The notes beneath the pieces are model-generated. The model saw only the letters and a program-made list of their open reading frames with translations. It was not told the DNA's origin and did not search any database. 64,000 nucleotides of DNA from Naegleria gruberi (taxonomy: Eukaryota). Below, one piece after another: positions 34,401 through 53,700 of the stretch; position 1 is the first letter of the stretch; every line of letters begins with the position of its first letter. Position numbers and translations under genes: made by a program. The stretch is taken from assembly GCA_000004985.1 (NCBI GenBank), contig GG738850.1; one strand, written 5' to 3'.

Positions 34401-36368
34401 ACTCAAGATTTCAACTCGTACTATGATGTCATTGCAACTTACTTTAGATCAGCAGCCAAGCAATCAGCACAAGAAATTCTATGGGGTAATATTATTGAAA
34501 GTACAGACAATATGTTGCTTTACCTTGCAAGATACTGGATTCTGCAAAAGCACCCAGAAATTTTAATAAGGAAAGAATTAAGAGAATTTACACTACCTTT
34601 ATCTGAAGTTATTGTTTACAAAGCTGATTACTACAGAAGGGATGTATTAAGTCCTCATTTGGGCAGTATAGTATTAGAGCTCATTAGTGACTTGTCGTCA
34701 GACAAGAATCTACCTCTAAAACCTACCACTTGGTTAATTGGTGCCGTAGAGGGTCTTTCTGAAAATTCAAATATTAATCAAGAGATTTTCTTTGATTTGT
34801 TTAAAGCTAGTATTAACAGATTGGCTAACAATGAAACCTATGTTGATTTGTTAGTATTGCTGTGCAGATTTTTAATCAAACGCTCAAACACTTGGGAGAC
34901 ATACCTTGGGCAAGTTGCTCAACAATTACAAAACTCACAACTTCAACATGATTTAGATAGGTTACGCCAAAAACTAGAAAATTCAAACATCAAAAACACA
35001 AGTATTACTCTGCACAAGTATTGCTTTGATCTATTCCAAATGGTTTGCATAGCCACAAGGAAAGTTACATTTTCAGATGCAGTTGATCTCTTGAATCAAA
35101 ATAGCCTCTCATTATCATCATCAAATTTATTTGATAGTAATGGAGAAACTACATTTTTCAAGACCTTTAATATGTTAATCCAAATCCTTAAATCTAACCT
35201 GAATTCCAGTTCTTCCATCTCTACCTTCTCCGAAACCTATTCAAATGTTCTTAAATATCCTTCTTCAGTAGCAATGAGGAATTTAAACACCTCTTCCCTG
35301 ATGCCATATTGTAAATATATACAACTCTTACTTGAATCTCCACTAGCATCATCAATCATAAGAAATACCAACTTTTCCCTTTTCTATTGTTCCAACTCCA
35401 ACTCTAAATTATTGCTAACTCCATGCATTAAGAATACTATTCCACTTGGCGAAAAGAAAAAAGCTTTGGTGGCTGAATTGAACATTTTTGCTGGTAAAAA
35501 TCAAGGAATCAGTTGCACTTCTGGCTCTCTATTCTTGTCTAAACCAGTTGTGACCAAGAGAACAGTTCCTTTAAATTACCAACAATTCCTAAGTAATCCT
35601 ATCACTGTATTTAGACAAAACATTAGCAATATGAAGTATACTCATACAGATGACTATTCCTACATGTTAGAAGTTGAAGGACTGTTTGATGATAACACTA
35701 GACACGGTATAGCGAATATTATTATTTTCAACCAAGTATGTGAACGTCTTCAACGTATTCTTCCAACTCTTGTCCTTCAATCAGATATAACTTCTTGTTA
35801 CTTTGTTATGGGTTGTTTACTTGGATCAAGTCTTCTTTGCAAATATTATTTGGGTCCACTCAATATAGACCAAGAAATACTGCAGTCATTTGTTGATGGA
35901 GTTAGTATTCCACAAGGATCACCCAAGTTTGAGATGGCTAACAGTTTTGTAACAGGTTTGAGAAGTGTGTTAGGAGATGATTTGGCTAATTTCCTTAAAG
36001 TATTTACAGCACAAGAGCTTATTTCTCTTACTTGTGATTGTAACACTATTTCATCCTTGGTTAATGAACTTCTTCATCAATATGTCGAAAGAGATGGAGA
36101 TGTCAATGAGGAAACATCAAAGCAATTTTTAAACTTGTTGGGAACTCTTTTGAAAGAAGATATATTTGTGGCAACATTATTATTAAATTATTTGGACGCT
36201 ATTGTTGCAGGTATGGAGGGCAGAAGATCATTCTCTTTGAATATTATCCCTCATGATTACAAAACTCTTCAAATCAATAGATCACACAAAACTGTTGACA
36301 TTTCAGTTTGCTATACAAAGGAAGAATTGAAACATATGATATTGACTGGTGTAAGAATTCAAAAATAA
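31446..36368 (+). CDS. Large (1640 aa) predominantly helical protein of unknown function
   Basis: ATG at 31446 and a single uninterrupted ORF with ordinary composition, flanked by short intergenic regions. I could not recognise a family-specific motif. Confidence 0.55.
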   Translation: MFNPFKPKNEPAERKCILEHSINQTLYTIDGETFFNELEDASSTIPLGNYSFDQYIDPLIIALGQLINPFSSQQSSQHQFFFNQQLSHTPLPTTDPQKEQQIISEALNTIKTYVNTWTLKSLRKHYLQNYATVDKLLIELRRCFDKNNVTLEQQMIILYITHKFAIATCAPQLVMEVLTYGTLMLPEKNTSPAASIFSEFIPTNILKAKLHKRNTGAIITKILAITLEYYEKNSTFKLLDTWKGKLLMYEEIPFLITKDLKRLFETMRRFMMSRNNGSNGVKEKVSKTAMKYLYNLFDRNLLNLNWMKLSEANDQILNYITSNGIPDELPHMLTLDFLIVKEGEAASIMNLKRIFSERTDKEEDIKHSVSSAAQYFLRIMHFYHCWIDRNHDVNNFVRHHNLSRFNFIKDFFILSTEMVQNLNSKNLSLAFIVHDLRYFECLKVIPQVLERYRTTYYNDIESDLWVEMENSTRAYMEKVSSVHEDLISHMQPVQINIAFGLLNSPIQLPADWKFRSMSLHLGKVKKSIQDIDTSSTSELFEKMSISDCSDSKDSFCSSFQEDPSTMFSRIFPEDTRTIEHIDQIYFEMFLHDYYREEKYPWIENLCNDHGKRQIILFSLCSVLRILFLHCSPTSTDTLRRIHQEVENTISYKKNTNDYNSVSPKDLKNLLKDVLQHTDQLMQISTLNGYYKTIEEGHTIEYYAQENDVFEAIFQKKNHFTEMFRLTSLAHSFSRHLDYLLDENIRTINAHVFLGFPHRDVSLVFNLESCGIEVFQSIIFKLLNIHARYTNAHTENKIREIIQKLNSPYYRNIVMRCVMEAAVRIYFDRMTGDQEMFKNSMTSLSKSQDSMLWFYEDILNTGLKDSSMTSALISHAITTLKSYFTEPGRRLSFDSRLIILSNPSIFSSKECAKVIASRPDIMELLLHHKVDYSSDSLLYYMFRSSILKLAYEHSLVNPDILINNTDYSTTFKMILEQGLRQFNPNDTQDFNSYYDVIATYFRSAAKQSAQEILWGNIIESTDNMLLYLARYWILQKHPEILIRKELREFTLPLSEVIVYKADYYRRDVLSPHLGSIVLELISDLSSDKNLPLKPTTWLIGAVEGLSENSNINQEIFFDLFKASINRLANNETYVDLLVLLCRFLIKRSNTWETYLGQVAQQLQNSQLQHDLDRLRQKLENSNIKNTSITLHKYCFDLFQMVCIATRKVTFSDAVDLLNQNSLSLSSSNLFDSNGETTFFKTFNMLIQILKSNLNSSSSISTFSETYSNVLKYPSSVAMRNLNTSSLMPYCKYIQLLLESPLASSIIRNTNFSLFYCSNSNSKLLLTPCIKNTIPLGEKKKALVAELNIFAGKNQGISCTSGSLFLSKPVVTKRTVPLNYQQFLSNPITVFRQNISNMKYTHTDDYSYMLEVEGLFDDNTRHGIANIIIFNQVCERLQRILPTLVLQSDITSCYFVMGCLLGSSLLCKYYLGPLNIDQEILQSFVDGVSIPQGSPKFEMANSFVTGLRSVLGDDLANFLKVFTAQELISLTCDCNTISSLVNELLHQYVERDGDVNEETSKQFLNLLGTLLKEDIFVATLLLNYLDAIVAGMEGRRSFSLNIIPHDYKTLQINRSHKTVDISVCYTKEELKHMILTGVRIQK

Positions 36369-37962: not shown

Positions 37963-38784
37963 ATGTCAATGTTTATACAGAGTTTCCTCGTTCAGAGTCT
38001 TCTTTATCCACTCCGAAGAACACAATGGATTGAGCAATCGAATATTGATCATGATCAATTAAATAATTTAAATAATTTAAATAAGAATGATGAAATTCCA
38101 ATGATGGTCATTCTCTTGCAAAAACTAGGATCATCTGCATCACCATCACCACGATCATCATTATCAGTACTACCTGATGAAGCTGCTGAATTATTTAATT
38201 TATATCATGGTTATACAATGTTTGCTGTTGGACATGGATTGAAAGCCTTGTTGATGAAATTCTCGATGGGTCATCAGATGGCAACAATTATTACTCATCC
38301 GATCATGGTGGGTATTCATAGGGTTGGATGTGATCTTTCCAATACTAGAGAATGGAAAGAAGAATTGGGAAAGGTTATTACTTTGAATGGAATGTTTGGA
38401 GGATTATTTAGAGGAATTATTCCACAATTAATTGCTAATTATTTGGTGAATATTGTGAATAGAAGTAATGTTTTTAATGGATTGGTGATTCCTGGAATTT
38501 CTTATTATCCTTTTCTTGGGGAAATTTTCCCATTTGTGAAGAGAGTAATGATTGGAGTGGCTGCTGGTTTAGTTAGCTATCCATTTACAACTTTATCTTT
38601 GAGAATGCAAATGAATCCTGAAGTGGCAATGGGTGATATTATTTCAGAAATGACCAATGAAGGAATATCTGGAATATATGCTGGATTTTCCACTCATCTT
38701 GTTGCTAATATTCTCACTGCAGTTTTACACAAATTCTTGGATTTGGTTATTAGAAAACCACTCAAGACACAGAGATACTATTAA
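37963..38784 (+). CDS. Hypothetical membrane protein, possibly a divergent mitochondrial-carrier-like protein
   Basis: ATG at 37963. The repeated G(L/I)(F/Y)(R/A)G...P...A pattern (GLFRGIIPQLIANYL and GIYAGFSTHLVANIL) is reminiscent of mitochondrial carrier family repeats. The evidence is weak. Confidence 0.35.
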   Translation: MSMFIQSFLVQSLLYPLRRTQWIEQSNIDHDQLNNLNNLNKNDEIPMMVILLQKLGSSASPSPRSSLSVLPDEAAELFNLYHGYTMFAVGHGLKALLMKFSMGHQMATIITHPIMVGIHRVGCDLSNTREWKEELGKVITLNGMFGGLFRGIIPQLIANYLVNIVNRSNVFNGLVIPGISYYPFLGEIFPFVKRVMIGVAAGLVSYPFTTLSLRMQMNPEVAMGDIISEMTNEGISGIYAGFSTHLVANILTAVLHKFLDLVIRKPLKTQRYY

Positions 38785-40640: not shown

Positions 40641-41057
40641 TCAGAATTGGACACTGACTCGAATTCTGTCAAACTGTGTTGCCTTGTGAGAATACCCAGG
40701 ATCAATTCCAACGTTATATTTCATGGGTTGATAGTGTGCAACAAGTACCAACCTAATTTCATTAAGAACTACATGAGTAAGATGTGAACATTCTAACTCG
40801 AAAGAAAAATTAAACTTTCCCTGATTGACCAGTTCTGGAATTTCCTTGTTCACCCTTTCCACAATCTTTAATATTAATTCCGAGTGTTTTTCGAATAAAC
40901 TGCGAATTGTTTCTTGATGTGCAACTGAGCCATCAAATGGTGGTTTAGGTAAATTCAATTCCTCAATTTTTTGAACATCCAATTCTTTTGATTTTTTAAA
41001 ATTATTCAAAACAGCGAGTTGAATAATAATAATAATTGACAGAAGTAAATCTTTCAT
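40641..41057 (-). CDS. Small predicted secreted protein (138 aa) of unknown function
   Basis: ATG at 41057 and an N-terminal hydrophobic signal-like segment (MKDLLLSIIIIIQLAVLN). Confidence 0.4.
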   Translation of the reverse strand: MKDLLLSIIIIIQLAVLNNFKKSKELDVQKIEELNLPKPPFDGSVAHQETIRSLFEKHSELILKIVERVNKEIPELVNQGKFNFSFELECSHLTHVVLNEIRLVLVAHYQPMKYNVGIDPGYSHKATQFDRIRVSVQF

Positions 41058-41073
41058 GTTTTTTAATTATTAA

Positions 41074-44000
41074 ATGATTGTTACAAAAAACCAACTTTCT
41101 TGTGGAAAGTGGAAATTTTTTAAATTAAAAAAAATGTTAACAACATCAGAGAGCAAGCGCAAGAGAGTTTCCGAATCGACAATAGATGCTCATCAAGCTA
41201 ATGATGAAAATATTGATGATGAAGAAATTTCCGTCCATGCCATCGATCCATCCAATGTAGTCGATAAGAAGGAAAAGATTGAAAGAGCAAAAATTTCGAA
41301 ACTCTTGCAATTGAAGAAGGAGAAGGAAGAAATTGATCGTCAGAGGAGGGAATTAGATTATTTGGAAAAGTTTATTCTGAACAAGCCTATGAGCATTTCC
41401 GAACCTAATTCTGCTGTTACTCCATCATCGTCTGCTACTCATGTTGAAGAAATTGATTATCAAATCTTTTTCCGACAAAAAGCAGTGATTGATTTACTTC
41501 AAGAACAGGGAAAGCAAAATATGATTAGATTTAATGTGAGAGGTAAAATATTCGTCACTTCGAGAGCAACTATTGAAAAGAGAGAAAATATGCTAAAGAC
41601 CATGTTATCTTCCAATTTTGGTATTGATACCGATTCTACAGGTGCCATCACACTTGATTGTAATCCAGATTATTTTCAAATTATTTTGGAACATATTAGA
41701 ACAGGTTCTACTACTCATATTGGTGTGTTTGAGGAAAGAACTGAGGATTATCTTGACAAGTTTAATGAATTGTTGGAGATGGCTGACTTTTTTGGTTTGT
41801 CTAAATTAGCAAGTGCTGTAAAGACAATTGTAAAGGATATTGAATCAGATAAAAGAAGTGAAAACAAGAAACTAACCTCATTGGATTCTAGTATGGTTTC
41901 AATCGATAAAGAACAGAAAGAACAGGAATACATTGAGAATTTCATGTCTCTTACTATAACTGAGAAGGAAAATGCAGATTCATACTTTTCAGATGTGGAA
42001 ACAAAACTTGAAAAGGAAAGAAAAGAATTGTTACAAAGAGAGAAGGATTTATTGTCCTCATGCTCCAATCCAGAATTGGTGTTCAATGTAAGAGGCGTCA
42101 GGCATGTTGTTTCCATTCAGAAAATTGTTGCTCATCCCGATTGTATTCTCAATGATTTATTAGCTAGAGTGGATTCTGGTGAATTGGATAATAATGAAAT
42201 TTTAATAGATAGAGATCCAGAAGTTTATCAGTACATATTCTCATTCTTACAAAATGGATCATTTTCAATTCCAAGTGAAGAACACAAGAAGAAGCAAATA
42301 TATCGTGAAGCCAAATCACTCAACTTGAGAAAAATGATTGACTATTTCGATCCACTACGTTGGCCAATAGAAACAATAGGTAAAGAGAATATCAAAATGA
42401 GAGAGGAGGAGGATTACATTAGAGAATTATTTGCAACTGACAGAGAAAATCCATTATTGAAAGATCCTTACCTATTTTTGATCAATATTTTCGAAAATCA
42501 AACTATTAGAGATGGTTTTAAAAAGGAAACAACCAATCCGAATATTCCATTAATTTTTAACTTTGAAGATCAAATAGAATGCTCAGAATTAACTTGGAAG
42601 GGAAATGTAGCTGAACCAAGAATTCCAGAAATTATTTCTAGTAAGGATGAATTTATTGCTCAATTCAATGCAGTTACCTATGGTATTTTCAAAGATGCTG
42701 ACTTTTCAAATATGGCTGTAGCTGGAGGTTAGTATTTGCTTTTATTTTAAACAAACACACAATTCGATATATATAGGAAGTATTTGTGCATGCCTTTTGA
42801 ACCATTCTGATTCACCTGAAAAGACTTCCAATCCAGGTAGACACAATTGGGATGAAGATGATGCATCTGATGAAGAGGTACCTGAAGCATCTAACGCAGA
42901 TAATTGCTTTACCGATTCAGATAATGAATCCTACAATGCAGGTTACAGTGGAACTAGTTATAATAGAACGTGGGGTGCCTCAAGTTTTGCTGACAATAGA
43001 ACAGAAAATCAAAAGATGGCCGACAAACTTGGAAGTACAGCATGGAAAGACAGTGATATTGATATTTTCTTGTATGGGCTTACTGAACAACAAGCAGAAG
43101 AAAAACTCACATACCTCTTCACTCTATTCAAGAAGAATTTGAATAGTCACACTGCAAGAACATACCAGAATGGGATATCTGATGATATTATGATTGTCAG
43201 AACTCAACATGCTGTGACCTTTTATTTCTCCTATCCTATCAGACCTGTTCAAATTATTTTAAGAATTTACAAATCAATTACTGAGATATTGTGTGGTTTT
43301 GACATTGATAGTGTAACTGTTGCATTCGATGGCAATCAAGTGTTTGCCCTACCAAGATTCAAAAGGGCTATCAAGTATAGAATGAATTTAGTAGATCCAG
43401 ATCGTCAGTCCACGTAAGTTTATTTATTAACCTTTTTGCTAACTGATCATCAATTCAGAACATATGAAAGTAAGTCATGATCCTTCAATTTTAATTTATA
43501 ACATTTATAGCTCGCTTAGTAAAGTACGCTAAAAGAGGTTTCAGAATAGGAATTCCAGGGTTTGATCCATCACTGATTAAAAATGAATATTTAACCCAGG
43601 GTAAAAACCCATTTTATTATCGTAGAAAATACAGATATTATAGGTTTAGCAATCATAAGGCTGATGTTTCAAGAGTTACAGGATTGGCAAGGATTTTATT
43701 GTACAAACAAGCTCACAAATATGCAAAAAATGTTAGAAAATCGATTGTGGAAGAAAATATTGAAAATCAGGAGAATGACCACGATTATAAACAGCTTTGC
43801 CTTCCATACAGTTCAACAGCAACCCCATCCCATAACTATCAAACAACCCAGTCTGTTATTGCTTATTTTATGGAAAAATTGGGAAAGAAACCTCATTTCG
43901 AATGTGCTTTGAATGATGTATTCTCGGTTTTGCACACCTCTGGTGACAATTCCACCCTTGAAGCTGAAGTTAAATGGATGGTTATTGAGCCAACCACACA

Positions 44001-44377
44001 AAAAATTGGAAGTTTCAAGTAAGTAGTTGTGCAATAATTGCCATATTAATCTTGGTTTTAGCCCAACAACAAATAACTTTTACAAGGATGCTTATTCTTC
44101 TATTAATGCAACAGGTCTTACGCCTGTTAAACGTAAGAAATTGAAATCAATCTACACATGGTCTTGGCAAAATAGGAACACTTTTATTAGTTATGATGAA
44201 GCAACTTGTGGCGTTATTGAAAAAGCATACAGAGAATATAGGGATAATGCTTCTAAAGACAGAGTCAATGTTTCTGATACTCACTACATTGATTTTAGAA
44301 GAATGAAACAAGTAGCAAAAGCAGATTCCACAAGACAAAGAGCAGTCAAAAGAACAAAATCTGTTGTTGTGGATTGA
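41074..44377 (+). CDS. Multidomain protein: two KCTD/T1-type BTB domains, a central region with a GS..SDIDI nucleotidyltransferase-like motif, and a C-terminal WWE domain; 5 exons: 41074..42727, 42777..43413, 43459..43469 (11-nt micro-exon), 43511..44018, 44062..44377
   Basis: ATG at 41074. The BTB-1 domain is IRFNVRGKIFVTSRATIE...LDCNPDYFQIILEHIRTG. The BTB-2 domain is LVFNVRGVRHVVSIQKI...LIDRDPEVYQYIFSFLQNG. Introns have donors GTTAGT and GTAAGT and acceptors TATAG, TTCAG and TTTAG. The track ORFs 42797, 43684 and 44027 start with TTG or other non-ATG codons. The WWE domain is YTWSWQNRNTFISYDEATCGVIEKAYREY...THYIDFRRMKQVAKADSTRQRAVKR. The joining of the last three exons depends on the micro-exon and is less certain. 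Confidence 0.6.
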
Positions 44378-44595: not shown

Positions 44596-47500
44596 TTAAT
44601 TTTCCTCAGAATTGTCAGACAAGAGGGAACCACCAACAACCTTCATAAAGGCAGAAAGTAATTCTGGTTCCTTTTGATTCTTAACTGGTGGATTTTTGAC
44701 AATTCTTGTATTCTTCAAGTTTGGTTCACCAGTACATTCAATCTTTTCGAGAGGTCCATTTACAATGAGAGAGAATGTTTGTGGCCCTTTAGGAACTTGT
44801 GTGCCTTCAACGACAACACGGAAAACAGTCTTGTCAGCAATGTGCTTGGAATATCCATTAATTTTAACTTGTTCCACATTATTGATATAATCTCTTCCAC
44901 CATTTCCATAATGTTCTTGACCATTATTTTCAATTTTAACAACCAAGTCAAGGTTATTGACAAGTTGAATTCTTGCATTAGGTGAACCAGGATAATCAGT
45001 CCAAACAAGTGTTGCCTTCAATGCTTGATCCAATTCCTTGAATGCTTGATCCTTAGTGCTTTTAACTGGAACAGCTCTGAAACAATATTGCTTATAACTG
45101 TCTGTTGTTACTGAATCTTGTTGTGAAACGAACATGTTAAAATCAGACTCTCCAGCAAAAGGCAAGACATGTCTGAGACGAACCAATCCGAAACCTTGAG
45201 TGAATGAAGGAGTACCGTGAAGTTTCTTCCACAATCCTGCACCATTAGCTTCAACCATTCCAGTCAATTCTTGACCACTGTTAACAAGAATAGCCTTCAA
45301 AGTGGCACCTGTTGGATCCACAGAGTTTTGTGAATTTTCTTTAGCAGTTGGATAAAATCCCTTGGTAAAGTATTGATGAACCATTGAGGCATAACCAGCT
45401 ACGATTGGTGTGGAAAAACTAGTACCTTGATTGGCGATAGGAACTGGACAATAACCCTTATTAGAGAATGAATCAGCCATCTCTTCAGAATCATCAGCTG
45501 AGGAAGTACCCAATGAACGAGATCCGAAAATAAGTTGACCAGGAGCAACAATATCTGGTTTGATTCTACCATCAGTAGTTGGTCCTCTTGAGGAAAAGGT
45601 ACCCATATTGTTTGGACTGAAATGTTCTGGGTGTTCAATCATGTCATTCAAGTACTTCTTTCCACAACAAACCTTCTTGAAAATATGACTGGAACAAGCA
45701 AATTTTTCACCAGTAATATCAATACTATCACAGAAAGATTGTTTGTGATCAAAACATGGAGATCTCTTGGCACCAATTGATTTACAGAAGGTTGGAGTAG
45801 CAAAGAGCATTCTTCCATGACCTCCCTTGAGACACATTTGAGTTTCCATCATTTCGTGTCTAATAATATCACCATAGAGTGGATAACCAAGTTCGAAACT
45901 CTTTCTAGTCCATTGAGAAGAACCAACAGTGATACAATTCTTGCAGGTACCTGGACTTGTGATACTTCTAGTACCACTTCTGCCACTGTTACCAGCAGCA
46001 TACAATTGAATAGTATTTGGATTCTTATAGGCCCATTCGTCAACATCTTGGGAGGCAATTGTGTACATGCCTCTCTTTGGACTACCCCAACTGTTTGTTG
46101 AAATCTTGGCATTACACTTGTTGTGCATGTATGGGAAGTAATCTCCACTCAAATCATGAGGAACACTGAGACGACGAGTTGGTAAACCAAGATCAAAGAA
46201 ACACAACTTGGCATCTTTAACAACTCCATCAAATAAATCCTTCATTTCTTCTCCATCATCGAATTGGTCTCCCTTGATAGAGCATGACAAGATTGAGGAA
46301 ACAAAAGAGCCGTGACCTCTAACAATGTCTCTATCATCAGCAAAACTCTTGTAAGAAATAAACTTATCGTGAGTGTCAGTTTCAATCTTGTTATAAGGAA
46401 CCTTTTGTCCTCTTCTATAGAAACAACAATTGTTAATATCAACACCAGTATCACCAATACCAATAACTTGGTCTCTTCCAGTGAATCCCTTTTCCCACAT
46501 CCATTTAACATCAGGCATAGCAGAGTGGCCAATCTTGTCATGTTCAACAAAATTGAGAGTAGTATTGGCAATTTGATGGAATTTTTCACCCAAATAAGTT
46601 TTAGATGTTGCTGACTTGGTTGATCCGTATTTGAAGAGAACTGACTTGTAGGAATCACTCAATGGATTAACAGCAGATAACAATTGGAAGGTTTCTTCAT
46701 CATCCAAAGAATATTCTTGTTCGCTTAACAATTTGTTAAAAGCAGTGGCAGCTTCACTGTCAGAATCAGCTTGTTCAAAAGATTTTTCCTTGACATAGTT
46801 TTGATAAAATTGGCTGAAAGGAATGTCAGCTTCTTCTTCTTCATCATCCTCAAAATCAGATTCAAGACCAAAGCTTTCTTCCTTTTGAATGTGACGAGAA
46901 AGTGGACTCTTTGAAAGAATTTCAATAATACTATCCTTAATAATTTGTGGAATGGTAACAGCAATTGTCAAATCCTTCTTCTTGTAAATAATAACATTTC
47001 TCTTAGCTTCAGTTTTGATGAGTTGTTCAACATTGGTTTTATCAATGAGATCAAAAGCAATATTTCTCCACTCTCTAATAAGACCTTCCATATCAGTATT
47101 GTAAAATAATTGAACTTCAAGACTGACTGTGGCGAGTGGCTTTTTCTTATTTGCTTGCAATTCATGACTAACCTTGTAAGATGGATCAGCAAGACCAACC
47201 CACAATATATCATCAGCAAGATTGTCATCCTCAGTCTTTTGTTGTTCCTTACTCAATCTCTTTTGATCAATCTTTTTCAATTTATCCAAAACAGAAACAA
47301 TTGAAGGAGCAACCAAAACGAAACTATTGTGTGGATGATAATTGACTTCAGAATTACTTTCAAAGTAACGTTTCAAAAAGTCTCCAAAGCCTGTCTTTAC
47401 AGGTGATTTGACTGTTACATAGATTTCTGTTGGTGTAACCTTTTCTTTGAGAACTTGTTTGAACTCATCAAAAGCCTTGTCAGCCAACTCTGTGTTATCC

Positions 47501-47961
47501 TCCTCTACTTCTTCTTGTTGATTTTCAGCTCTTTTCAAGGTAACAAGCTTTTGCAAGAGTGAAGGAGTATTCTCTGTATCAATGTATCGCTCTCCATTGA
47601 ACAAAATCTTTCTTCCATGAAGAAAACTATTCATCAATTCATCATCAGCAAATTTCTTTCCCAATATAAAGACATCCCTCAGTTTGTTGTTACTATTATT
47701 ACTAACTTCGGATGGATCTTCTTCACTCTCCTCATTGATGATTATATCATTGGCGCCTCTCTGAGTATTTTGCTTTTTTCTCGGTAAAGTTTTAAAATTA
47801 CTCTCCAGCTGTGTTTGTAATTTTACGAGTAAATCTTCGTGGCGGGAAAGTTTGGCTTGTTGTTCTACTGTTGCTTGTTGGGAGAGGGTAACAAGTAGAA
47901 GGCAAGCTGTCAACAGCAACAAGACTATTGCGAAAACTCTTGAAACTGCTTTGTTAGCCAT
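44596..47961 (-). CDS. Secreted subtilisin-like serine protease (S8 family) with long N-terminal region and a Cys-rich insertion between the oxyanion Asn and catalytic Ser
   Basis: ATG at 47961 and a signal peptide (VFAIVLLLLTACLLLV). The catalytic motifs are GIGDTGVD (Asp), RGHGSFVSS (His), YAAGNSG (Asn) and NQGTSFSTPIVAG (Ser). An insert of about 130 aa with about 10 Cys precedes the Ser motif. Confidence 0.8.
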   Translation of the reverse strand: MANKAVSRVFAIVLLLLTACLLLVTLSQQATVEQQAKLSRHEDLLVKLQTQLESNFKTLPRKKQNTQRGANDIIINEESEEDPSEVSNNSNNKLRDVFILGKKFADDELMNSFLHGRKILFNGERYIDTENTPSLLQKLVTLKRAENQQEEVEEDNTELADKAFDEFKQVLKEKVTPTEIYVTVKSPVKTGFGDFLKRYFESNSEVNYHPHNSFVLVAPSIVSVLDKLKKIDQKRLSKEQQKTEDDNLADDILWVGLADPSYKVSHELQANKKKPLATVSLEVQLFYNTDMEGLIREWRNIAFDLIDKTNVEQLIKTEAKRNVIIYKKKDLTIAVTIPQIIKDSIIEILSKSPLSRHIQKEESFGLESDFEDDEEEEADIPFSQFYQNYVKEKSFEQADSDSEAATAFNKLLSEQEYSLDDEETFQLLSAVNPLSDSYKSVLFKYGSTKSATSKTYLGEKFHQIANTTLNFVEHDKIGHSAMPDVKWMWEKGFTGRDQVIGIGDTGVDINNCCFYRRGQKVPYNKIETDTHDKFISYKSFADDRDIVRGHGSFVSSILSCSIKGDQFDDGEEMKDLFDGVVKDAKLCFFDLGLPTRRLSVPHDLSGDYFPYMHNKCNAKISTNSWGSPKRGMYTIASQDVDEWAYKNPNTIQLYAAGNSGRSGTRSITSPGTCKNCITVGSSQWTRKSFELGYPLYGDIIRHEMMETQMCLKGGHGRMLFATPTFCKSIGAKRSPCFDHKQSFCDSIDITGEKFACSSHIFKKVCCGKKYLNDMIEHPEHFSPNNMGTFSSRGPTTDGRIKPDIVAPGQLIFGSRSLGTSSADDSEEMADSFSNKGYCPVPIANQGTSFSTPIVAGYASMVHQYFTKGFYPTAKENSQNSVDPTGATLKAILVNSGQELTGMVEANGAGLWKKLHGTPSFTQGFGLVRLRHVLPFAGESDFNMFVSQQDSVTTDSYKQYCFRAVPVKSTKDQAFKELDQALKATLVWTDYPGSPNARIQLVNNLDLVVKIENNGQEHYGNGGRDYINNVEQVKINGYSKHIADKTVFRVVVEGTQVPKGPQTFSLIVNGPLEKIECTGEPNLKNTRIVKNPPVKNQKEPELLSAFMKVVGGSLLSDNSEEN

Positions 47962-48116: not shown

Positions 48117-50174
48117 TTATTTGTTGGGTTGATTCTTCTTGAGTTTAAGCCAAGAATCATAATAAGAAACATTTAGTTCCCTATTACATTGTAAAATCTT
48201 GTTGTAATTCAGAGAATCATTGTGGGAAGTAGTTGAACTCGAAAGGCTAAGCGATTTGATTAACTTGTAGAAAAGTTTGTACTGTTTGACCAAAAACTTC
48301 TTACGCGACGTCAGAATCAATTTAAGATCAGAATATTGGCATCCTTCAACTCTCGTCTGTTTTGTTTCTTTCAAATTTGTAAAAAGATAAAAGAAGTACT
48401 CTTTTGAAAAGGTTGCTGTTTCTGACTCTTTCTCGACAGATTCATCCTGCAACGAGTGCCCTATTACGAATATTGCATCAATTGAAGGCTCTTCTATAGC
48501 TGTATAAATGTATCGGGATTTTCTTGTCGCCATGAATGGTAATTTCGACACTGTTTCACAAACTCCAAAAGCAAATGGATTGGTAGCATTATGAGTGGAT
48601 ACATTAGTGTTACATTCCTTAACCTGTATTTCAGAATTAATGTCCAGTTTCTGCTGATTTTCAATATTGGTGAAAATATTCCAAAATTTTTCCAGTGGGC
48701 AATCAATAGTTGTTGAAAATTTGGTCAATTTCATTCTACTAGCTAGAGCCTTATCGAAAGTATAGACTTGCTTGGATGCTAATACTTTCAAGCCACGTTT
48801 ATCTCGTATGACTTTCCAATCCTTAGTGTCCTCCAATAATAGGGAGAAACCAAAATAAAAATGTTCTCGCTTAATTACCTTGTCTTTGATGTCACTCTCC
48901 TTAATTCTCCAGTCCAAAATGTTGAATGAATAATTCTTCACAGCTACGGATCTAGTATATTCCTCACCCTTTCTCTTCAAAAAATATAAAACGTCTGGGT
49001 GTTTACAAAACCATGGAAACGAGTCAACTTGTAAATCTAAATGGACACTATTGTACAAATCCCTAAATATTACATTTGGATCCAACTTGTTGCCGATTTC
49101 CTGAACAATTGTATTCTTTGATTTTAGCTCGGTTATGGAATACTTCTTGGTCTCCTCTTTGATCAAGTCCTTATGCATTTCAGAAATGATAAGCCAACTC
49201 TTTAATAGGTCTGTTTTGAGAGGACCTCTGTGTAATTCTTTTTCTGCCTGTTCTATGATAAACCTTTCAATTATTTCCTTTTTGACCTTGTTCATCAATT
49301 TGTATATCTGTTCCTTACTGGTCTTTAGTTGCTTTGAAAGTAAATCGAAGGAAGTCTGATCTCTACTCTCATCCACATTTGTATTTGGGCTTGTTTCGAT
49401 TGTTGGTGTGGAAATATTTGAATGATCTTTTTCAACAACTTTAGAAGGATCATCCTTATTATTCTCCTGATGATTAAGATCATCCCTAGATGTACTTGAG
49501 GAGATACTTTTTTCAGTAACAACACTGATCTTATCCATTGTCTTCATTGGCTGATTATCTAGTGAGTCATCTGTATAATCGTGGCTCGAAGAACTTGTGG
49601 TTGTTGTGATCTTAGTGGCATTCATCTCCATATTGTTCTCTCGCCACTTGGAATAAACCTTCTTATACTCATCACAAGCAATAATGAATTCAAAAGGCTC
49701 CTCAGCTTTTGAAACTTTCAAAAAGGTAAGGAATAATTCTGAACATTCTCTATCTTTCAATACTTGTTCAAAGACAAGTGAATAGTCTTTTGGATTGAAA
49801 TCAGGATTGTCATCACTTCCATCACCAAGATAACTATCAACATTAGGGCAACCTGATGACCTCGAACTAGATGATACAAATCGCATAATATTAAAATTAT
49901 TTCCTTTACTATTACTTCGCCACTTTCTTTTATGTTCCTCCCAATAGTCTACATCTGTTGCCGTTGTTCCACTTGCTGATGATTCAGTGGCTGATGAGCC
50001 ACCTGTATTGCTTCCGTTACGACCTCCTCCATTAGGTTCCTCCACTGAAAAGATATCATCATCCGCATCGTGAGGAAATATCGAAATAATTTGTTGTTGT
50101 TGATATTGATGTTGTTGAGGTTGTTGTTGCTTATTAGCTGATGCGTCTGGTGATGAAGGTGAAGAAGCTATCAT
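48117..50174 (-). CDS. RGS (regulator of G-protein signalling) domain protein with Q-rich N-terminus and a C-terminal region of uncertain (possibly START-like) fold
   Basis: ATG at 50174. The RGS core is DYSLVFEQVLKDRECSELFLTFLKVSKAEEPFEFIIACDEYKK. Confidence 0.65.
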   Translation of the reverse strand: MIASSPSSPDASANKQQQPQQHQYQQQQIISIFPHDADDDIFSVEEPNGGGRNGSNTGGSSATESSASGTTATDVDYWEEHKRKWRSNSKGNNFNIMRFVSSSSRSSGCPNVDSYLGDGSDDNPDFNPKDYSLVFEQVLKDRECSELFLTFLKVSKAEEPFEFIIACDEYKKVYSKWRENNMEMNATKITTTTSSSSHDYTDDSLDNQPMKTMDKISVVTEKSISSSTSRDDLNHQENNKDDPSKVVEKDHSNISTPTIETSPNTNVDESRDQTSFDLLSKQLKTSKEQIYKLMNKVKKEIIERFIIEQAEKELHRGPLKTDLLKSWLIISEMHKDLIKEETKKYSITELKSKNTIVQEIGNKLDPNVIFRDLYNSVHLDLQVDSFPWFCKHPDVLYFLKRKGEEYTRSVAVKNYSFNILDWRIKESDIKDKVIKREHFYFGFSLLLEDTKDWKVIRDKRGLKVLASKQVYTFDKALASRMKLTKFSTTIDCPLEKFWNIFTNIENQQKLDINSEIQVKECNTNVSTHNATNPFAFGVCETVSKLPFMATRKSRYIYTAIEEPSIDAIFVIGHSLQDESVEKESETATFSKEYFFYLFTNLKETKQTRVEGCQYSDLKLILTSRKKFLVKQYKLFYKLIKSLSLSSSTTSHNDSLNYNKILQCNRELNVSYYDSWLKLKKNQPNK

Positions 50175-50706: not shown

Positions 50707-53700
50707 ATGTTGTCACTTCTTCCAACTGAAGCAGCCAGTAGTAATACTCATCATCATCACCTTCATCATACTCAATCATCTTTGGAAATAAGGGAAGACG
50801 ATTATTCTATTCATTCCGATTATGATCCTCTTTCAACCGGAAGGGAATCATTTGTAAATAACATCAACAATATTGAGGAAGAAATTGGAGAATCCTTAGA
50901 CACTATCAGTAGTAACAGTGGTAGTGAGGAATTATTCTTTGGAATGGAACCAACCTCAACACAGAATAATCAGCATCATCATGATCCTTCTAGTCATGGA
51001 TCGTTTCCAGCTGATGTTGAGGAGGAAATTGAAGTATTGCCGGGGGAGGAGGATGACGATGATTCAGATAAAGATTTGAATTCGTCTGAAGAAAGAGGAA
51101 GGAGATCAAATATGAGAATCAAAACACATGACATGAATTATTCAGTAGATGATTACTTCAAATCATTAAATGGCAAGCTTCCTTCTCCAACATCACTTCC
51201 GAATCTAAACGATACAATTGAGGAATCTCTTGCTAGTGATGATTCCAATGAAAATACTCCAAAGAAAGCAACATCATCAATTATATACAAGAAGAGATTT
51301 CCAGTGCCAATTTCTGAACCAGTCTTTTCTCCTCGAAAGGATCGTCTTCTCAAACATTGTTCAACTTTCTACTTTCATCCAGAAACAGCTCAATGTTCCC
51401 ATGATTCCCAGCTCGTTTCACCAAAGGAGTACTCTTCATTCCTCTCTCGTCATTCAGATTTCAACTCTTCACCGAGTAGTTATAACATCAATAGTCCCCA
51501 ACAGCAACAATCAGCTGCTCTAATCACACACAGTAGTGTCTACACAACTTGGAGTGACGGTAGCAATAGCATCGGGAGCTTTAAAACCAACTCTGCCACT
51601 ACTGCAATGAACAACACTACAGTGAAAGACTCAACGATCGAACCATCAGAGGAAAACCCCAACCGAACAATTTCTCATCTTCCTTCAGTGAGCCTTTCCA
51701 ATGTTAAGAACCTCACGGAACGACAAAAAAATTTACTATACTCTATAAAGGTTGCTAAGGTTGTTAAGGAGAGTAATCATCACTCGACCACTAACAACAA
51801 TTGTAACAAGGACCTTAATCATCAACATCATCATTCTCAACAATCAACGGTTAATAGTAATAGTGAAAAGTCTCCTGTTACCGTATCAAAAAAATTAGGT
51901 TTATCAGAATTTACAGTTGCTAATAATAATAATAGCAACAATAAGAATCCATCATCAAATTATCGCATTAAGGAGGAAATTCTAGCACAATTATCATCTC
52001 CTTTGAAGAGGAAGTTGAAAAAGGAGGATATATTTGATTCTACTGTGCAACCATTAACATCATTTAGAAGTGACGAAGGAAGAGAAGTATCTGCTGTTGA
52101 GGAGTGGATTGCCTTTCAAAAGCAGAGAATTACTGAGGACGATAATATTGAGGATACAACTGGAGAAGGAATTTTTGAATTTACACAAGTGAAGGATTCA
52201 TCATTGCGAACATCAACAATTATTGGAGAGGACGAGCAAGAAAACAACAACATGACTAGTAATTCACTGAGTCCCCCATTTCACTTGATCAAGAGGAGTT
52301 CCAACAAGACAATGCAATTAATTTCATCAGATATTCCTATTGTACATAATGCTTCATCTACTGCCTTGTTTGCTAACATTCCACCAATCTTGAAACCACT
52401 TCAACTCTCACAGGCTAGTTCGGCCCAATTAGAAAAGAAACAACATCAAGTGGTGAGGAATTCCATTCAACAATTTCGTTCAAATAAGCATGCTCTCCAC
52501 ACTGTTCCGAAACCAACAGTTTCAAAGAGTCAAATTGTTCCACCAAGTGCCAAAACATCAGCACGACCCATGGTGGCACAACCATCCCCCAATCTAGTAA
52601 TACCAAATCAGCACGTCGAAGATGTTAAACCAGTGAGAAGAAAGAATGTACCTGTAATTAATGTTCCTCAAATTAAGATTACCGAAAAGATGCAAACCTA
52701 TGCTTCGTTGCATCAACTCAAATCACCATCGAATCACAAACAACAAGATTATGAACTGGCAGCTGATTCAGTATTTGTCGTCGTGTCTGGTGATGTTCTC
52801 AATGAAATTCGAGAAAAGAATGAAAAAGTTGAGAGAAAGAGACCTTACGAGATTATATACTTTGATAAGAGTTTATCAAGAGTGAAACAAGTTGTTCCAT
52901 GTGGATCATTTACAATTTTTGTTGCGGAAGGTAAAGAAACTGAAAGAGTGTTTGTAATATATAAGGAAAACCCACTCCTTCATCCAACCAAAAAGGTTGA
53001 AAATGTATATAACAAGTACTTTACCTTTTGCAATTCAAATTTTCATCCACAACTGAGAGAAGTTGACTACAAAACTCTTATCAGGACTGAGTTTGAGAAG
53101 AATAACGTAAATCTAGATCCATATGTATTGCAAGATCCAAAAAGTTTGGAATTGACTGAGGTTTATGGAACACAAGATGCATTCATGCTCAAAATGAGGA
53201 ATAATTTCTGTATCTTTATACATTTTGCAGAAACTGCGGAAAAGGTTAAAATATCCTTCTTTGAAGAGTATGCAGGAGGAACCATTGATTGGATTGAAAC
53301 AAATCCCTGCTCCAATACCTTACTCTTGTACGGTCACGCAAGAGGGAGAACCAATTACCTGTTGGATATAATGGTATTGGATCCAGAGCCGAGGAGAAGA
53401 AAGTTGCAACTTCCACCAGAAATATCTCAAAACAATATAAGGATTATTCGAGTAGGATTACACAGAATTATTATAGTGACCAATGACAATCAATTGTACA
53501 TACATAGAAGCGAGAAGAAAGGATCTGAAACATCTGAAAATTTTGAACTGTTTGATAAGGTTTGGGAAGCTCCTATCAGGCAAGTGAGATGTGGAGGCTA
53601 TCACAATGTGGTTCTGCTCCAGAATGGTAATATTTATGCGTGGGGTTTCAATAACCACTACCAATGTGGAATTTATGAAAATGTTAAAAACAAGATCCCT

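What the first reader, a model, noticed from the sequence alone, without database searches (positions are those of the whole stretch)
41074..44377. Unusual domain architecture: 2x KCTD/T1-type BTB + GS...SDIDI nucleotidyltransferase-like region + WWE domain in one spliced gene
The two N-terminal domains fit the K-channel-tetramerisation (T1) type of BTB fold (FNVRG..., ...IDRDP..Y.YI..FL..G), and KCTD proteins use this fold as Cul3 adaptors. The C-terminal exon encodes a clear WWE domain (W.W...R..F..Y.......IE.AY.EY...........HYIDF..M.Q....STRQRAV.R). In other proteins WWE domains bind poly- or iso-ADP-ribose. Between them lies KLGSTAWKDSDIDIFLYG, which resembles the hG[GS]...DhD signature of Pol-beta-type nucleotidyltransferases, though the spacing is shorter than usual. 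It is followed by a conserved-looking ...ILCGFDIDSVTVAFDG... segment. I do not know of any BTB+WWE combination in characterised proteins. One reading is a PAR-dependent Cul3 substrate adaptor, possibly with its own nucleotidyltransferase-like activity. The gene model also needs an 11-nt micro-exon (43459..43469) to keep the frame.
Basis: partly seen in the sequence, partly recalled or inferred. Interest (0 to 1): 0.65.

Follow-up and report, generated by a model that had tools for sequence, protein, structure and literature searches.

The report
BTB–Gad2 nucleotidyltransferase–WWE protein of an amoeboflagellate
This is one real five-exon gene of a Naegleria-like amoeba whose 1021-residue protein joins two KCTD-type BTB domains and a poly(ADP-ribose)-reader WWE domain to a nucleotidyltransferase domain related to the phage anti-defence protein Gad2, a large family whose eukaryotic members nobody has studied and which is often fused to PARP enzymes.

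Summary
Exons 41134..42727, 42777..43413, 43459..43469, 43511..44018 and 44062..44377 splice in frame to a 1021-aa protein, colinear with annotated orthologues in Naegleria fowleri, N. lovaniensis and Willaertia magna. The 11-nt micro-exon is conserved in N. fowleri.

The real one is AGGS, split by intron 1, about 92 residues upstream of DIDIF, with a disordered acidic insert between them.

The module has about 6,700 cluster representatives in eukaryotes, giant viruses and phages. It recurs with ankyrin repeats, BTB_2 and DNA-damage-type PARPs.

Best reading: an oligomeric terminal nucleotidyltransferase guided by poly(ADP-ribose). A Cul3-adaptor role is possible but untested. No member of the family has a known substrate.

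The parts
41134..42727 (+). Exon 1 (residues 1-531 plus the first base of G532). Encodes an N-terminal coiled coil, BTB_2 #1, a second coiled coil, BTB_2 #2 and the N-terminal part of the nucleotidyltransferase module.
   Evidence: One ORF. The ATG at 41134 matches the orthologues' N-terminus. Splice donor is GTTAGT.
41521..41832 (+). BTB_2 (T1/KCTD-type) domain #1, about residues 130-233.
   Evidence: Pfam BTB_2 and BTB. The best solved relatives are KCTD10/BACURD3, KCTD9, KCTD17 and KCTD5.
42079..42321 (+). BTB_2 domain #2, residues 316-396.
   Evidence: This is the best-scoring Pfam BTB_2 stretch. The best solved relatives are KCTD15 and KCTD1.
42346..42727 (+). N-terminal extension of the Gad2-type module (EEDYIRELFATDRENP...) through to the strand that ends in A530-G531-G(532).
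   Evidence: Conserved in family members that lack BTB domains. Folded with pLDDT above 86 in the model of P0014.
42728..42776 (+). Intron 1 (49 nt, GT..AG). It interrupts the codon of G532 inside the G-G-S motif.
42777..43413 (+). Exon 2: the rest of the GGS motif, the acidic insert and the catalytic core of the nucleotidyltransferase.
   Evidence: An identical 206-aa ORF (P0004) carries a precomputed PF26128:Gad2 hit.
42800..43042 (+). Acidic, low-complexity insert (about N540-A620) between the GGS and DxD motifs.
   Evidence: Poorly conserved and variable in length among orthologues. Absent or short in other family members. Disordered in the model of the N. fowleri orthologue, pLDDT below 50.
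43055..43063 (+). D625-I-D627, the metal-binding DxD of the Pol-beta-type nucleotidyltransferase.
   Evidence: Invariant in the three orthologues and invariant or nearly invariant (at least 90%) in the family alignments. Aligned with the invariant D45/D47 of phage Gad2 homologues.
43295..43312 (+). G705-F-D707-I-D709-S motif, a candidate for the third catalytic carboxylate.
   Evidence: G, F and the first D are invariant in 60 members. Aligns with the invariant F106-D107 of phage Gad2 homologues.
43459..43469 (+). 11-nt micro-exon (AACATATGAAA) encoding T745-Y746-E747 and completing the flanking T744 and T748 codons.
   Evidence: Needed to keep the frame. TYE is invariant in the orthologues. 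The same micro-exon with the same splice sites is present in N. fowleri.
43511..44018 (+). Exon 4: RLVKYAKRGF motif and the helical C-terminal extension of the module.
   Evidence: The R..KY..RG motif is shared with phage Gad2. GLARLL, HDY and HPF motifs are conserved across 60 members.
44062..44377 (+). Exon 5: end of the module (NPTTNNFYKDAY), a basic linker, the WWE domain and the TGA stop codon.
44153..44353 (+). WWE domain, residues 948-1014.
   Evidence: Pfam WWE, E 1.5e-10. The best solved relative is the RNF146 WWE domain.

Best explanation
The locus is one gene for a multidomain enzyme. Its order is: coiled coil, BTB_2, coiled coil, BTB_2, a Gad2-family Pol-beta-type nucleotidyltransferase module of about 520 residues (including an insert of about 80 residues), then WWE.

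Shown here:
- The gene model.
- The identity of each domain.
- The nucleotidyltransferase fold, with conserved GG, DxD and FD motifs.
- Retention of the basic and glutamine iso-ADP-ribose contact residues in the WWE domain.
- The recurrent fusion of this nucleotidyltransferase module to PARP catalytic domains and to BTB_2 in other protists.

Inferred:
- The two T1/KCTD-type BTB domains make the protein a tetramer or pentamer.
- The WWE domain docks it on poly(ADP-ribose), for example at PARylated sites made by DNA-damage-type PARPs.
- The nucleotidyltransferase is active and template-independent, like its closest structural relatives (class II poly(A) polymerases and CCA-adding enzymes). It would transfer a nucleotide to a hydroxyl of a polyanionic acceptor.

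The most plausible acceptor is a nucleic-acid 3' end. A poly(ADP-ribose) terminus or a protein is not excluded. The substrate and the biological process (DNA-damage signalling or antiviral conflict) remain open.
For: Gene model.

BTB_2 (two copies) and WWE.

Gad2 membership:
- Precomputed PF26128:Gad2 hits on the identical exon-2 ORF and on the orthologues.
- hhalign of the eukaryotic family against phage Gad2 homologues from the Yirmiya et al. supplement: probability 96.6%, E 5e-10 over 127 columns.
- PHROG 1614 'nucleotidyltransferase', E 6e-4.

Fold:
- AlphaFold model of P0014: pLDDT 87.7, pTM 0.81.
- Foldseek against the PDB gives the same ranking.

Catalytic motifs: invariant across the three orthologues and invariant or nearly invariant across the family alignments.

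WWE contact residues: RNF146 R110, Q153 and R163 align with R, Q and R here, and Y107 aligns with W. The roles of these residues are taken from PMC10877565.

Link to ADP-ribose:
- 6 of 60 mid-sized family members carry a PARP catalytic domain and 2 carry WWE.
- Eight PARP-Gad2 fusions were found. Among them is Cavenderia fasciculata XP_004367090.1 (BRCT-WGR-PARP_reg-PARP-Gad2-Ank).
- Pelomyxa schiedti P0003 is WGR-PARP_reg-PARP-OB-SAM-Gad2-UDG.

BTB_2-Gad2 recurs in Heterolobosea, in Amoebozoa, in unattributed metagenomic proteins and in giant viruses.
Against: - No member of the Gad2 family has a demonstrated enzymatic activity or substrate. A 2026 review states that the mechanism of phage Gad2 has not been elucidated (PMC12904381).
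- The GGS and DxD motifs are about 92 residues apart here, against the canonical 9-13. Whether the active site still assembles rests on the model of the N. fowleri orthologue, whose core is confident but which is poor overall (pLDDT 59.9).
- The window's own spliced protein could not be modelled. The good model is of a relative with 34% identity.
- RNF146 W114 is replaced by I. Y144 aligns with H, with a Y next to it. K175 has no counterpart because the protein ends. PAR binding is therefore plausible but not certain.
- Most family members carry neither PARP nor WWE. Ankyrin repeats are the commonest partner, so the ADP-ribose link may hold only for a subset.
Confidence: 0.55

Rival explanations
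1. PAR-dependent Cul3 substrate adaptor. A BTB_2 domain binds Cullin-3, the WWE domain selects PARylated proteins for ubiquitination in the manner of RNF146, and the nucleotidyltransferase module is an accessory or substrate-binding part. This could coexist with an active nucleotidyltransferase.
For: BTB#1 is most similar to KCTD10/BACURD3, KCTD9, KCTD17 and KCTD5, all known Cul3 adaptors by published knowledge. WWE domains couple PAR to E3 ligases in RNF146. One PARP-Gad2 fusion also carries tandem ubiquitin-like domains (P0133).
Against: Cul3 binding is not predictable from BTB_2 sequence and was not tested. BTB#2 resembles KCTD1/KCTD15, which are reported not to bind Cul3. BTB_2-Gad2 proteins without a Pfam-detected WWE domain are more frequent in the 60 mid-sized members sampled (13 with BTB_2, 2 with WWE). 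The invariant catalytic motifs argue that the nucleotidyltransferase is not a passive module.
Confidence: 0.2
2. Conflict or immunity effector. The Gad2-type nucleotidyltransferase is a toxin-like or signal-generating enzyme used in amoeba-giant-virus conflict. It would parallel its phage role against Gabija and the fungal fusions to long ankyrin arrays. The WWE domain would sense infection-induced ADP-ribosylation.
For: The founding member is a phage anti-defence protein that is toxic on over-expression. A related phage nucleotidyltransferase is cytotoxic. The module is expanded in giant viruses of amoebae, where it is fused to ankyrin, BTB and VWFA domains. There are several heterolobosean paralogues. 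The family is large and rich in ankyrin-repeat fusions in fungi.
Against: There is no direct evidence of conflict at this locus. The gene has 1:1 orthologues at 42-50% identity across three genera, and its neighbours are ordinary genes. The fusions with WGR, BRCT, OB, UDG and HMG-box domains point to DNA repair rather than immunity.
Confidence: 0.15
3. Inactive scaffold. The nucleotidyltransferase module is a pseudo-enzyme whose active site has been disrupted by the 80-residue acidic insert, and the protein acts only as an oligomeric PAR-binding scaffold.
For: The spacing between GGS and DxD is non-canonical. The insert is disordered.
Against: GG, DxD, FD and the basic motifs are invariant in all three orthologues despite only about 50% overall identity. 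The insert lies in a loop, and the flanking strands are modelled confidently in the N. fowleri orthologue.
Confidence: 0.07
4. Artefact of the gene model: the BTB-nucleotidyltransferase part and the WWE part are separate genes.
For: None beyond the absence of transcript data for this organism.
Against: Intron 4 is 43 nt long with GT..AG ends. A family-conserved motif spans the exon 4/5 junction. N. fowleri, N. lovaniensis and Willaertia magna have the same fusion.
Confidence: 0.03

Closest known systems
Phage Gad2 (Gabija anti-defence 2; Bacillus phage SPbetaL7 and a Brevibacillus laterosporus prophage), the name-giving protein of Pfam PF26128
   Same: Homologous nucleotidyltransferase core. 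Shared motifs are AGG, DxD-hF, (I)Q(L)I..Y.SP.EI, FD, and R..KY..(R/K)G(F/Y). The Gad2 authors also predicted a nucleotidyltransferase from AlphaFold.
   Different: Phage Gad2 is a stand-alone protein of about 400 aa, with canonical GG-x11-DxD spacing and its own C-terminal domain. The window protein has two BTB_2 domains, an acidic insert of about 80 aa, a different eukaryote-type C-terminal extension and a WWE domain. It sits in a eukaryote that is not known to have Gabija. Identity is low: a pairwise hhalign against a single sequence is weak, and only the profile-profile comparison is significant.
Class II CCA-adding enzymes and bacterial poly(A) polymerase I (PolyA_pol head domain)
   Different: There is no sequence-level match to PF01743 (nothing at E up to 1). 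Identity is only 8-15% in structural alignments, with large rmsd outside the head domain. The neck, body and tail domains that bind tRNA were not identified here.
RNF146 (Iduna), a WWE-containing PAR-dependent E3 ligase
   Same: Best solved match of the WWE domain. R110, Q153 and R163 are conserved. The concept is the same: an effector recruited or activated by iso-ADP-ribose.
   Different: There is no RING domain. The effector here is a nucleotidyltransferase, with a possible Cul3 link through BTB. W114 and K175 have no equivalents.
KCTD proteins (KCTD5, 9, 10, 17; KCTD1, 15)
   Same: T1-type BTB_2 fold. In KCTDs this domain forms tetramers or pentamers and often binds Cul3 (published knowledge).
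   Different: There are two BTB_2 domains in one chain, each preceded by a coiled coil. The C-terminal partner is an enzyme rather than a small KCTD C-terminal domain.
Protist PARP-Gad2 fusion proteins (e.g. Cavenderia fasciculata XP_004367090.1; Pelomyxa schiedti 'uracil-DNA glycosylase', 1776 aa)
   Same: The same eukaryote-type Gad2 module: 43% identity over the core with the Pelomyxa protein. All are linked to ADP-ribosylation.
   Different: They carry the writer (WGR-PARP_reg-PARP) and DNA-repair domains (BRCT, OB, UDG, HMG). The window protein carries a reader (WWE) and BTB_2 domains instead.

Membership tests
Pfam PF26128 (Gad2) | Significant match to the family HMM | tested here: met
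   The evidence is precomputed hits only. The 206-aa ORF identical to window exon 2 (P0004) is listed with PF26128:Gad2, unmarked, which means E at most 1e-5. The orthologues P0001 and P0002 are also listed with it. The local Pfam copy lacks this model, so the score could not be recomputed.
Pfam PF26128 (Gad2) | Homology to experimentally validated phage Gad2 | tested here: met
   hhalign of 19 eukaryotic members against 9 Gad2 homologues from the Yirmiya et al. supplement, which include the validated B. laterosporus protein: probability 96.6%, E 5e-10, 127 columns.
Pfam PF26128 (Gad2) | Inhibition of the Gabija defence system | not testable with these tools
   This is a functional property of the phage members. 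There is no reason to expect it in a eukaryote.
Pol-beta-type nucleotidyltransferase superfamily | Characteristic alpha/beta fold | tested here: met
Pol-beta-type nucleotidyltransferase superfamily | hG[GS] followed after 9-13 residues by DhD | tested here: inconclusive
   Both motifs are present and conserved (A530-G-G-S533 and D625-I-D627), but they are about 92 residues apart because of the insert. The spacing is 11 in phage Gad2 and 17-25 in insert-free eukaryotic members.
Pol-beta-type nucleotidyltransferase superfamily | Third catalytic carboxylate on a neighbouring strand | tested here: inconclusive
   The candidates D707 and D709 (GFDxD) are invariant or nearly invariant.
Pol-beta-type nucleotidyltransferase superfamily | Nucleotidyl-transfer activity | not testable with these tools
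   This needs biochemistry.
Class II CCA-adding enzyme / poly(A) polymerase (PF01743) | Match to the PolyA_pol HMM | tested here: not met
   No hit at E up to 1. The resemblance is structural only. The protein is not filed as a member.
BTB_2 / K-channel tetramerisation (T1, KCTD-type) domain, PF02214 | HMM match above the gathering threshold | tested here: met
   69.7 bits against 21.4, in two stretches. The best solved sequence matches are KCTD proteins.
KCTD-type Cul3 adaptors | Binding of the Cullin-3 N-terminal domain | not testable with these tools
   No diagnostic sequence motif exists. Only the similarity of BTB#1 to Cul3-binding KCTDs is available.
WWE domain, PF02825 | HMM match above the gathering threshold | tested here: met
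   41.7 bits against 21.1, covering the full-length model 1-67. It is also found in the N. fowleri and W. magna orthologues.
WWE domain, iso-ADP-ribose-binding subclass (RNF146-like) | Ligand-contact residues Y107, R110, Q153, R163 and K175 | tested here: inconclusive
   R110 aligns with R (K in N. fowleri). Q153 aligns with Q and R163 with R, both invariant in the three orthologues. Y107 aligns with an invariant W. K175 has no counterpart.

The most novel reading that the evidence does not exclude
Gad2-family nucleotidyltransferases, from phage Gad2 to the eukaryotic and giant-virus members, share one activity: template-independent nucleotide addition to DNA/RNA ends or to ADP-ribose polymers at break sites. 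In eukaryotes this activity would be wired into poly(ADP-ribose) signalling, either fused to the writer (WGR-PARP) or, as here, to a reader (WWE). The architecture in this window would then be the first sign of a 'PAR-guided end-nucleotidylation' branch of the DNA-damage or antiviral response. It would also give a testable mechanism for how phage Gad2 blinds the end-sensing Gabija nuclease.
Probability: 0.15. Interest if true: 0.85.

Novelty: new variant of a known kind. Interest (0 to 1): 0.58.

Why it matters
Gad2 is a validated phage anti-defence protein, and a 2026 review states that its mechanism has not yet been elucidated. Homologues turn out to form a very large eukaryotic and giant-virus family: 6,721 cluster representatives at E up to 1e-3.

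I found no description of the eukaryotic members in the searchable literature. Two PARP-evolution papers that I checked do not mention the domain.

Repeated fusion to DNA-damage-type PARPs, to a PAR reader and to KCTD-type BTB domains gives concrete hypotheses about the substrate and the pathway. The acceptor could be a nucleic-acid end or PAR, and the setting would be a PARylated site. These can be tested with simple biochemistry, in both the eukaryotic and the phage proteins.

The locus also documents a conserved 11-nt micro-exon in Heterolobosea.

Tried and rejected
- Local Pfam scans cannot see PF26128 because the model is missing from that copy. I relied on precomputed labels and my own profile-profile test.
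- NCBIfam gave nothing for the module, and nothing even for bona fide Gad2.
- A sequence search of the central region against the PDB gave no hit at E up to 10.
- tblastn of the core against 50,697 phage genomes gave only spurious tape-measure matches.
- hhalign of a three-sequence profile against a single Gad2 sequence was weak (E 0.0085, probability 4.7%). Larger alignments on both sides were needed.
The same input rule applies to structure prediction. I therefore used the exon-2 ORF, the orthologues and P0014 as proxies.
- The full-length N. fowleri model is poor outside the nucleotidyltransferase core and BTB#2 (pLDDT 59.9). It says nothing reliable about how the domains are arranged or about the WWE domain.
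- The afdb50 fold library was unavailable.
It is not the published N. gruberi set: the closest N. gruberi proteins are 31% paralogues.
- No second copy of the module or of the BTB domains exists elsewhere in the window.
Full report
**1. What is in the sequence**

The window is AT-rich eukaryotic DNA (about 34% GC) with short GT..AG introns.

The region holds a long ORF, 41074..42732, followed by three further coding pieces. Joining 41074(41134)..42727, 42777..43413, 43459..43469, 43511..44018 and 44062..44377 gives an uninterrupted reading frame. Leaving out the 11-nt piece shifts the frame into stop codons. The introns are 49, 45, 41 and 43 nt long.

The second ATG, at 41134, is the likely start:
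- It reproduces the ML(S/T) N-terminus of the orthologues.
- The first ATG, at 41074, lies 17 nt from the ATG of a divergently transcribed ORF that starts at 41057.

From 41134 the protein has 1021 residues.

**2. Is the gene model real?**

A database search found two full-length, colinear relatives: Naegleria fowleri FDP41_000356 and N. lovaniensis C9374_002102. Both show 50% identity over 99% of the query. The three-way alignment has no gaps at any exon junction.

The micro-exon encodes T-Y-E, which is invariant in the three proteins. I mapped the N. fowleri protein back onto its gene. The same four residues are encoded there by an 11-nt exon, AACCTATGAAA, between CAG and GTAAGT. The window has AACATATGAAA between CAG and GTAAGT.

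A motif conserved across the wider family, GSF(H/N)P....(W/F)...AY, straddles the exon 4/5 junction. The WWE-encoding exon therefore belongs to the same gene. Willaertia magna KAL9656478 has the same architecture, 2 x BTB_2 ... WWE.

The species was not identified:
- The protein is 50% identical to the N. fowleri and N. lovaniensis orthologues.
- It is 42% identical to the W. magna protein.
- It is only 31% identical to the nearest annotated N. gruberi proteins, which are paralogues.
- An identical exon-2 ORF sits on a 1.5-kb contig of an ENA metagenome assembly.

**3. The flanking domains**

Pfam gives BTB_2 in two stretches (E 2.9e-19) and WWE (E 1.5e-10), both far above their gathering thresholds.

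Against solved structures:
- BTB#1 (residues about 126-238) is closest to KCTD10/BACURD3, KCTD9, KCTD17 and KCTD5.
- BTB#2 (residues about 310-402) is closest to KCTD15 and KCTD1.

The WWE domain is closest to that of RNF146. Its iso-ADP-ribose contacts are Y107, R110, Q153, R163 and K175 (PMC10877565). In the alignment:
- R110, Q153 and R163 correspond to R, Q and R.
- Y107 corresponds to W.
- W114 corresponds to I.
- K175 has no equivalent, because the protein ends.

The Q, the two arginines of the R-x-R pair and the W are invariant in the three orthologues.

**4. The central region**

The precomputed annotation of the orthologues, and of the ORF identical to exon 2, lists Pfam PF26128, labelled 'Gad2'. 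The local Pfam copy lacks this model.

Gad2 is 'Gabija anti-defence 2' of Bacillus phage SPbetaL7. It is a 400-aa protein, and its authors predicted a nucleotidyltransferase domain from an AlphaFold model (bioRxiv 10.1101/2023.05.01.538930). A 2026 review states that its mechanism is not yet elucidated (PMC12904381).

To test the link directly, I took nine Gad2 homologues from that paper's supplementary table. They include the experimentally validated Brevibacillus laterosporus protein. I compared their profile with a profile of 19 eukaryotic relatives. The result was probability 96.6% and E 5e-10 over 127 columns.

The shared motifs are:
- AGG
- DxD followed by an aromatic residue
- (I)Q(I/L)I..Y.S(P).E(I/V)
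- FD
- R..KY..(R/K)G(F/Y)

PHROGs adds weak but consistent hits: phrog_1614 'nucleotidyltransferase', E 6e-4.

**5. Fold**

I therefore modelled P0014, a 346-aa family member without the insert. It is 34% identical to exon 2 and shares the upstream EEDY..LFA..RE..P segment. The alignment had 61 sequences. The model has mean pLDDT 87.7 and pTM 0.81.

- TENT5B, CD-NTases, Pol lambda/beta, MenT toxins and OAS1 follow.
- Foldseek gives the same order.

The Pol-beta-type nucleotidyltransferase fold is therefore supported. Membership of the PolyA_pol sequence family is not (no PF01743 hit).

A model of the full-length N. fowleri orthologue is poor overall (pLDDT 59.9). Its nucleotidyltransferase core has the same succession of strands and helices with pLDDT 80-97, and the acidic insert is disordered.

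**6. Correction of the motif assignment**

The conserved glycine motif is A530-G531-G532-S533 (..MAVAGGSICACLL). It lies at the end of exon 1 and the start of exon 2, and intron 1 sits inside the G532 codon. The motif aligns with IAGGTITSLF of Gad2 and with CGGSVLASLL of the Pelomyxa protein.

The spacing between GG(S) and the DxD motif varies:
- 11 residues in phage Gad2.
- 17-25 residues in insert-free eukaryotic members.
- About 92 residues here, because of an acidic, serine- and aspartate-rich insert that varies in length among the orthologues.

DIDIF (D625, D627) and GFDIDS (D707, D709) are invariant in the orthologues and invariant or nearly so in the family alignments.

**7. Size and make-up of the family**

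An exhaustive profile search of 1.84 billion cluster representatives found 6,721 proteins at E up to 1e-3 and 1,179 at E up to 1e-30.

Named members are mostly fungal 'ankyrin repeat proteins'. The long ones are about 1,700-1,900 aa, with the module near the N-terminus. P0034, the only long one scanned against Pfam, has ankyrin arrays behind the module.

Partner domains in 60 mid-sized members:

| Partner domain | Members |
|---|---|
| Ankyrin repeats | 15 |
| BTB_2 | 13 |
| PARP catalytic domain | 6 |
| PARP_reg | 3 |
| WWE | 2 |

Eight PARP fusions were identified among about 190 members. Examples:
- Cavenderia fasciculata XP_004367090.1: BRCT-WGR-PARP_reg-PARP-module-Ank.
- A Clydonella transcript: WGR-PARP_reg-PARP-module.
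- One protein with an HMG box and one with tandem ubiquitin-like domains.

The Pelomyxa schiedti protein is WGR-PARP_reg-PARP-OB-SAM-module-UDG.

BTB_2-module proteins occur in several lineages:
- N. gruberi, two paralogues.
- N. lovaniensis, one extra paralogue.
- Acrasis kona.
- Rhizamoeba saxonica.
- Metagenomic sequences.

A structure search of viral proteins shows the same module in giant viruses of protists: Fadolivirus, Pithovirus-like viruses, Bodo saltans virus, pandoraviruses and klosneuviruses. There it is fused to ankyrin, BTB or VWFA domains. It also occurs in tailed phages.

**8. How it most likely works**

*Shown here*
- A single protein that combines two oligomerisation-type BTB domains, a nucleotidyltransferase with intact signature residues, and a WWE domain that keeps three of the five iso-ADP-ribose contacts of RNF146 (R110, Q153 and R163).
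- A statistical association of the nucleotidyltransferase module with ADP-ribose writers and readers, and with DNA-repair domains.

*Inferred*
- The protein oligomerises through BTB_2.
- It is recruited to, or activated on, poly(ADP-ribose) through the WWE domain.
- It carries out template-independent nucleotidyl transfer, like its closest structural relatives.

The many invariant arginines and lysines after the catalytic core (R725, R728, R741, R749, K752, K755, R756) fit a polyanionic substrate. Whether the acceptor is an RNA or DNA 3' end, a PAR terminus or a protein is unknown.

*Rival readings*
- The Cul3-adaptor reading is compatible with this one and cannot be excluded.
- A conflict or immunity role is suggested by the phage and giant-virus distribution and by the toxicity of phage members.

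**9. Comparison with what is known, and novelty**

Each domain is a member of a known family, and the fused architecture already exists in public databases as unnamed hypothetical proteins.

I found no paper that describes eukaryotic Gad2-type proteins, a BTB-WWE combination or PARP-Gad2 fusions. Two surveys of PARP evolution do not mention the domain. The literature tool covers only open-access text, so absence there is not proof.

I therefore class the finding as a new variant of a known kind: an uncharacterised domain architecture built around a recognised but mechanistically unsolved enzyme family.

**10. Verdict**

Interest is moderate to fairly high. The locus itself is an ordinary conserved gene. 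However, it exposes a large unstudied eukaryotic branch of a phage anti-defence enzyme family and ties it to poly(ADP-ribose) signalling in a way that can be tested directly.

Noticed in passing
window 40641..41057 (-) and 41058..41133: A 138-aa ORF with no Pfam match is transcribed divergently. Its ATG (41057) is only 76 nt from the likely start of the BTB-Gad2-WWE gene (41134). The two genes would share a very short bidirectional promoter region.
   Followed up: partly
window 44596..47961 (-): A convergent 1121-aa intron-less ORF with a subtilase (Peptidase_S8) domain, E 6.5e-30. Its stop codon lies 218 nt from the stop of the studied gene. No gene with exactly this product is on record in the assembly index.
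   Followed up: partly
window 31446..36368 (+), 48117..50174 (-), 50707..54051 (+), 37963..38784 (+): Other large ORFs nearby: a 1640-aa ORF with no Pfam hit at all, a 685-aa ORF with an RGS domain, a 1114-aa ORF with RCC1 repeats, and a 273-aa ORF with one mitochondrial-carrier repeat.
   Followed up: partly
L003 (N. fowleri VFQX01000002.1, 183629-199475): The N. fowleri orthologue lies between an XRN 5'-3' exoribonuclease gene and an ARM/HEAT-repeat gene. There is no synteny with the window's neighbours. The N. fowleri gene model has more introns (at least 7) than the window gene (4), but it shares the 11-nt micro-exon.
   Followed up: partly
L001 (ENA ERZ929261, contig k127_55823, 1564 bp): A metagenome contig carries an ORF 100% identical to window exon 2, so the same or a very close organism is present in an environmental data set (PRJEB11402).
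   Followed up: no
P0003, P0114, P0096, P0048, P0130, P0133, P0100, P0043, P0037: DNA-damage-type PARPs (WGR-PARP_reg-PARP, some with BRCT, OB, UDG, HMG box or ubiquitin-like domains) from Amoebozoa, a haptophyte and unnamed protists carry a C-terminal Gad2-type nucleotidyltransferase module. The PARP-evolution papers I checked do not mention this.
   Followed up: partly
BFVD hits of model mfd02e941ce25: Giant viruses of protists (Fadolivirus, Pithovirus-like, Bodo saltans virus, pandoraviruses, klosneuviruses) encode many proteins with the same module fused to ankyrin, BTB or VWFA domains. This suggests exchange of the module between hosts and viruses.
   Followed up: no
window residues about 45-80 and 285-315 of the protein (41266..41373, 41986..42078): Each BTB_2 domain is preceded by a lysine- and glutamate-rich helix. 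In the N. fowleri orthologue these are predicted as long single helices (H55-95 and H323-356), probably coiled coils.
   Followed up: no
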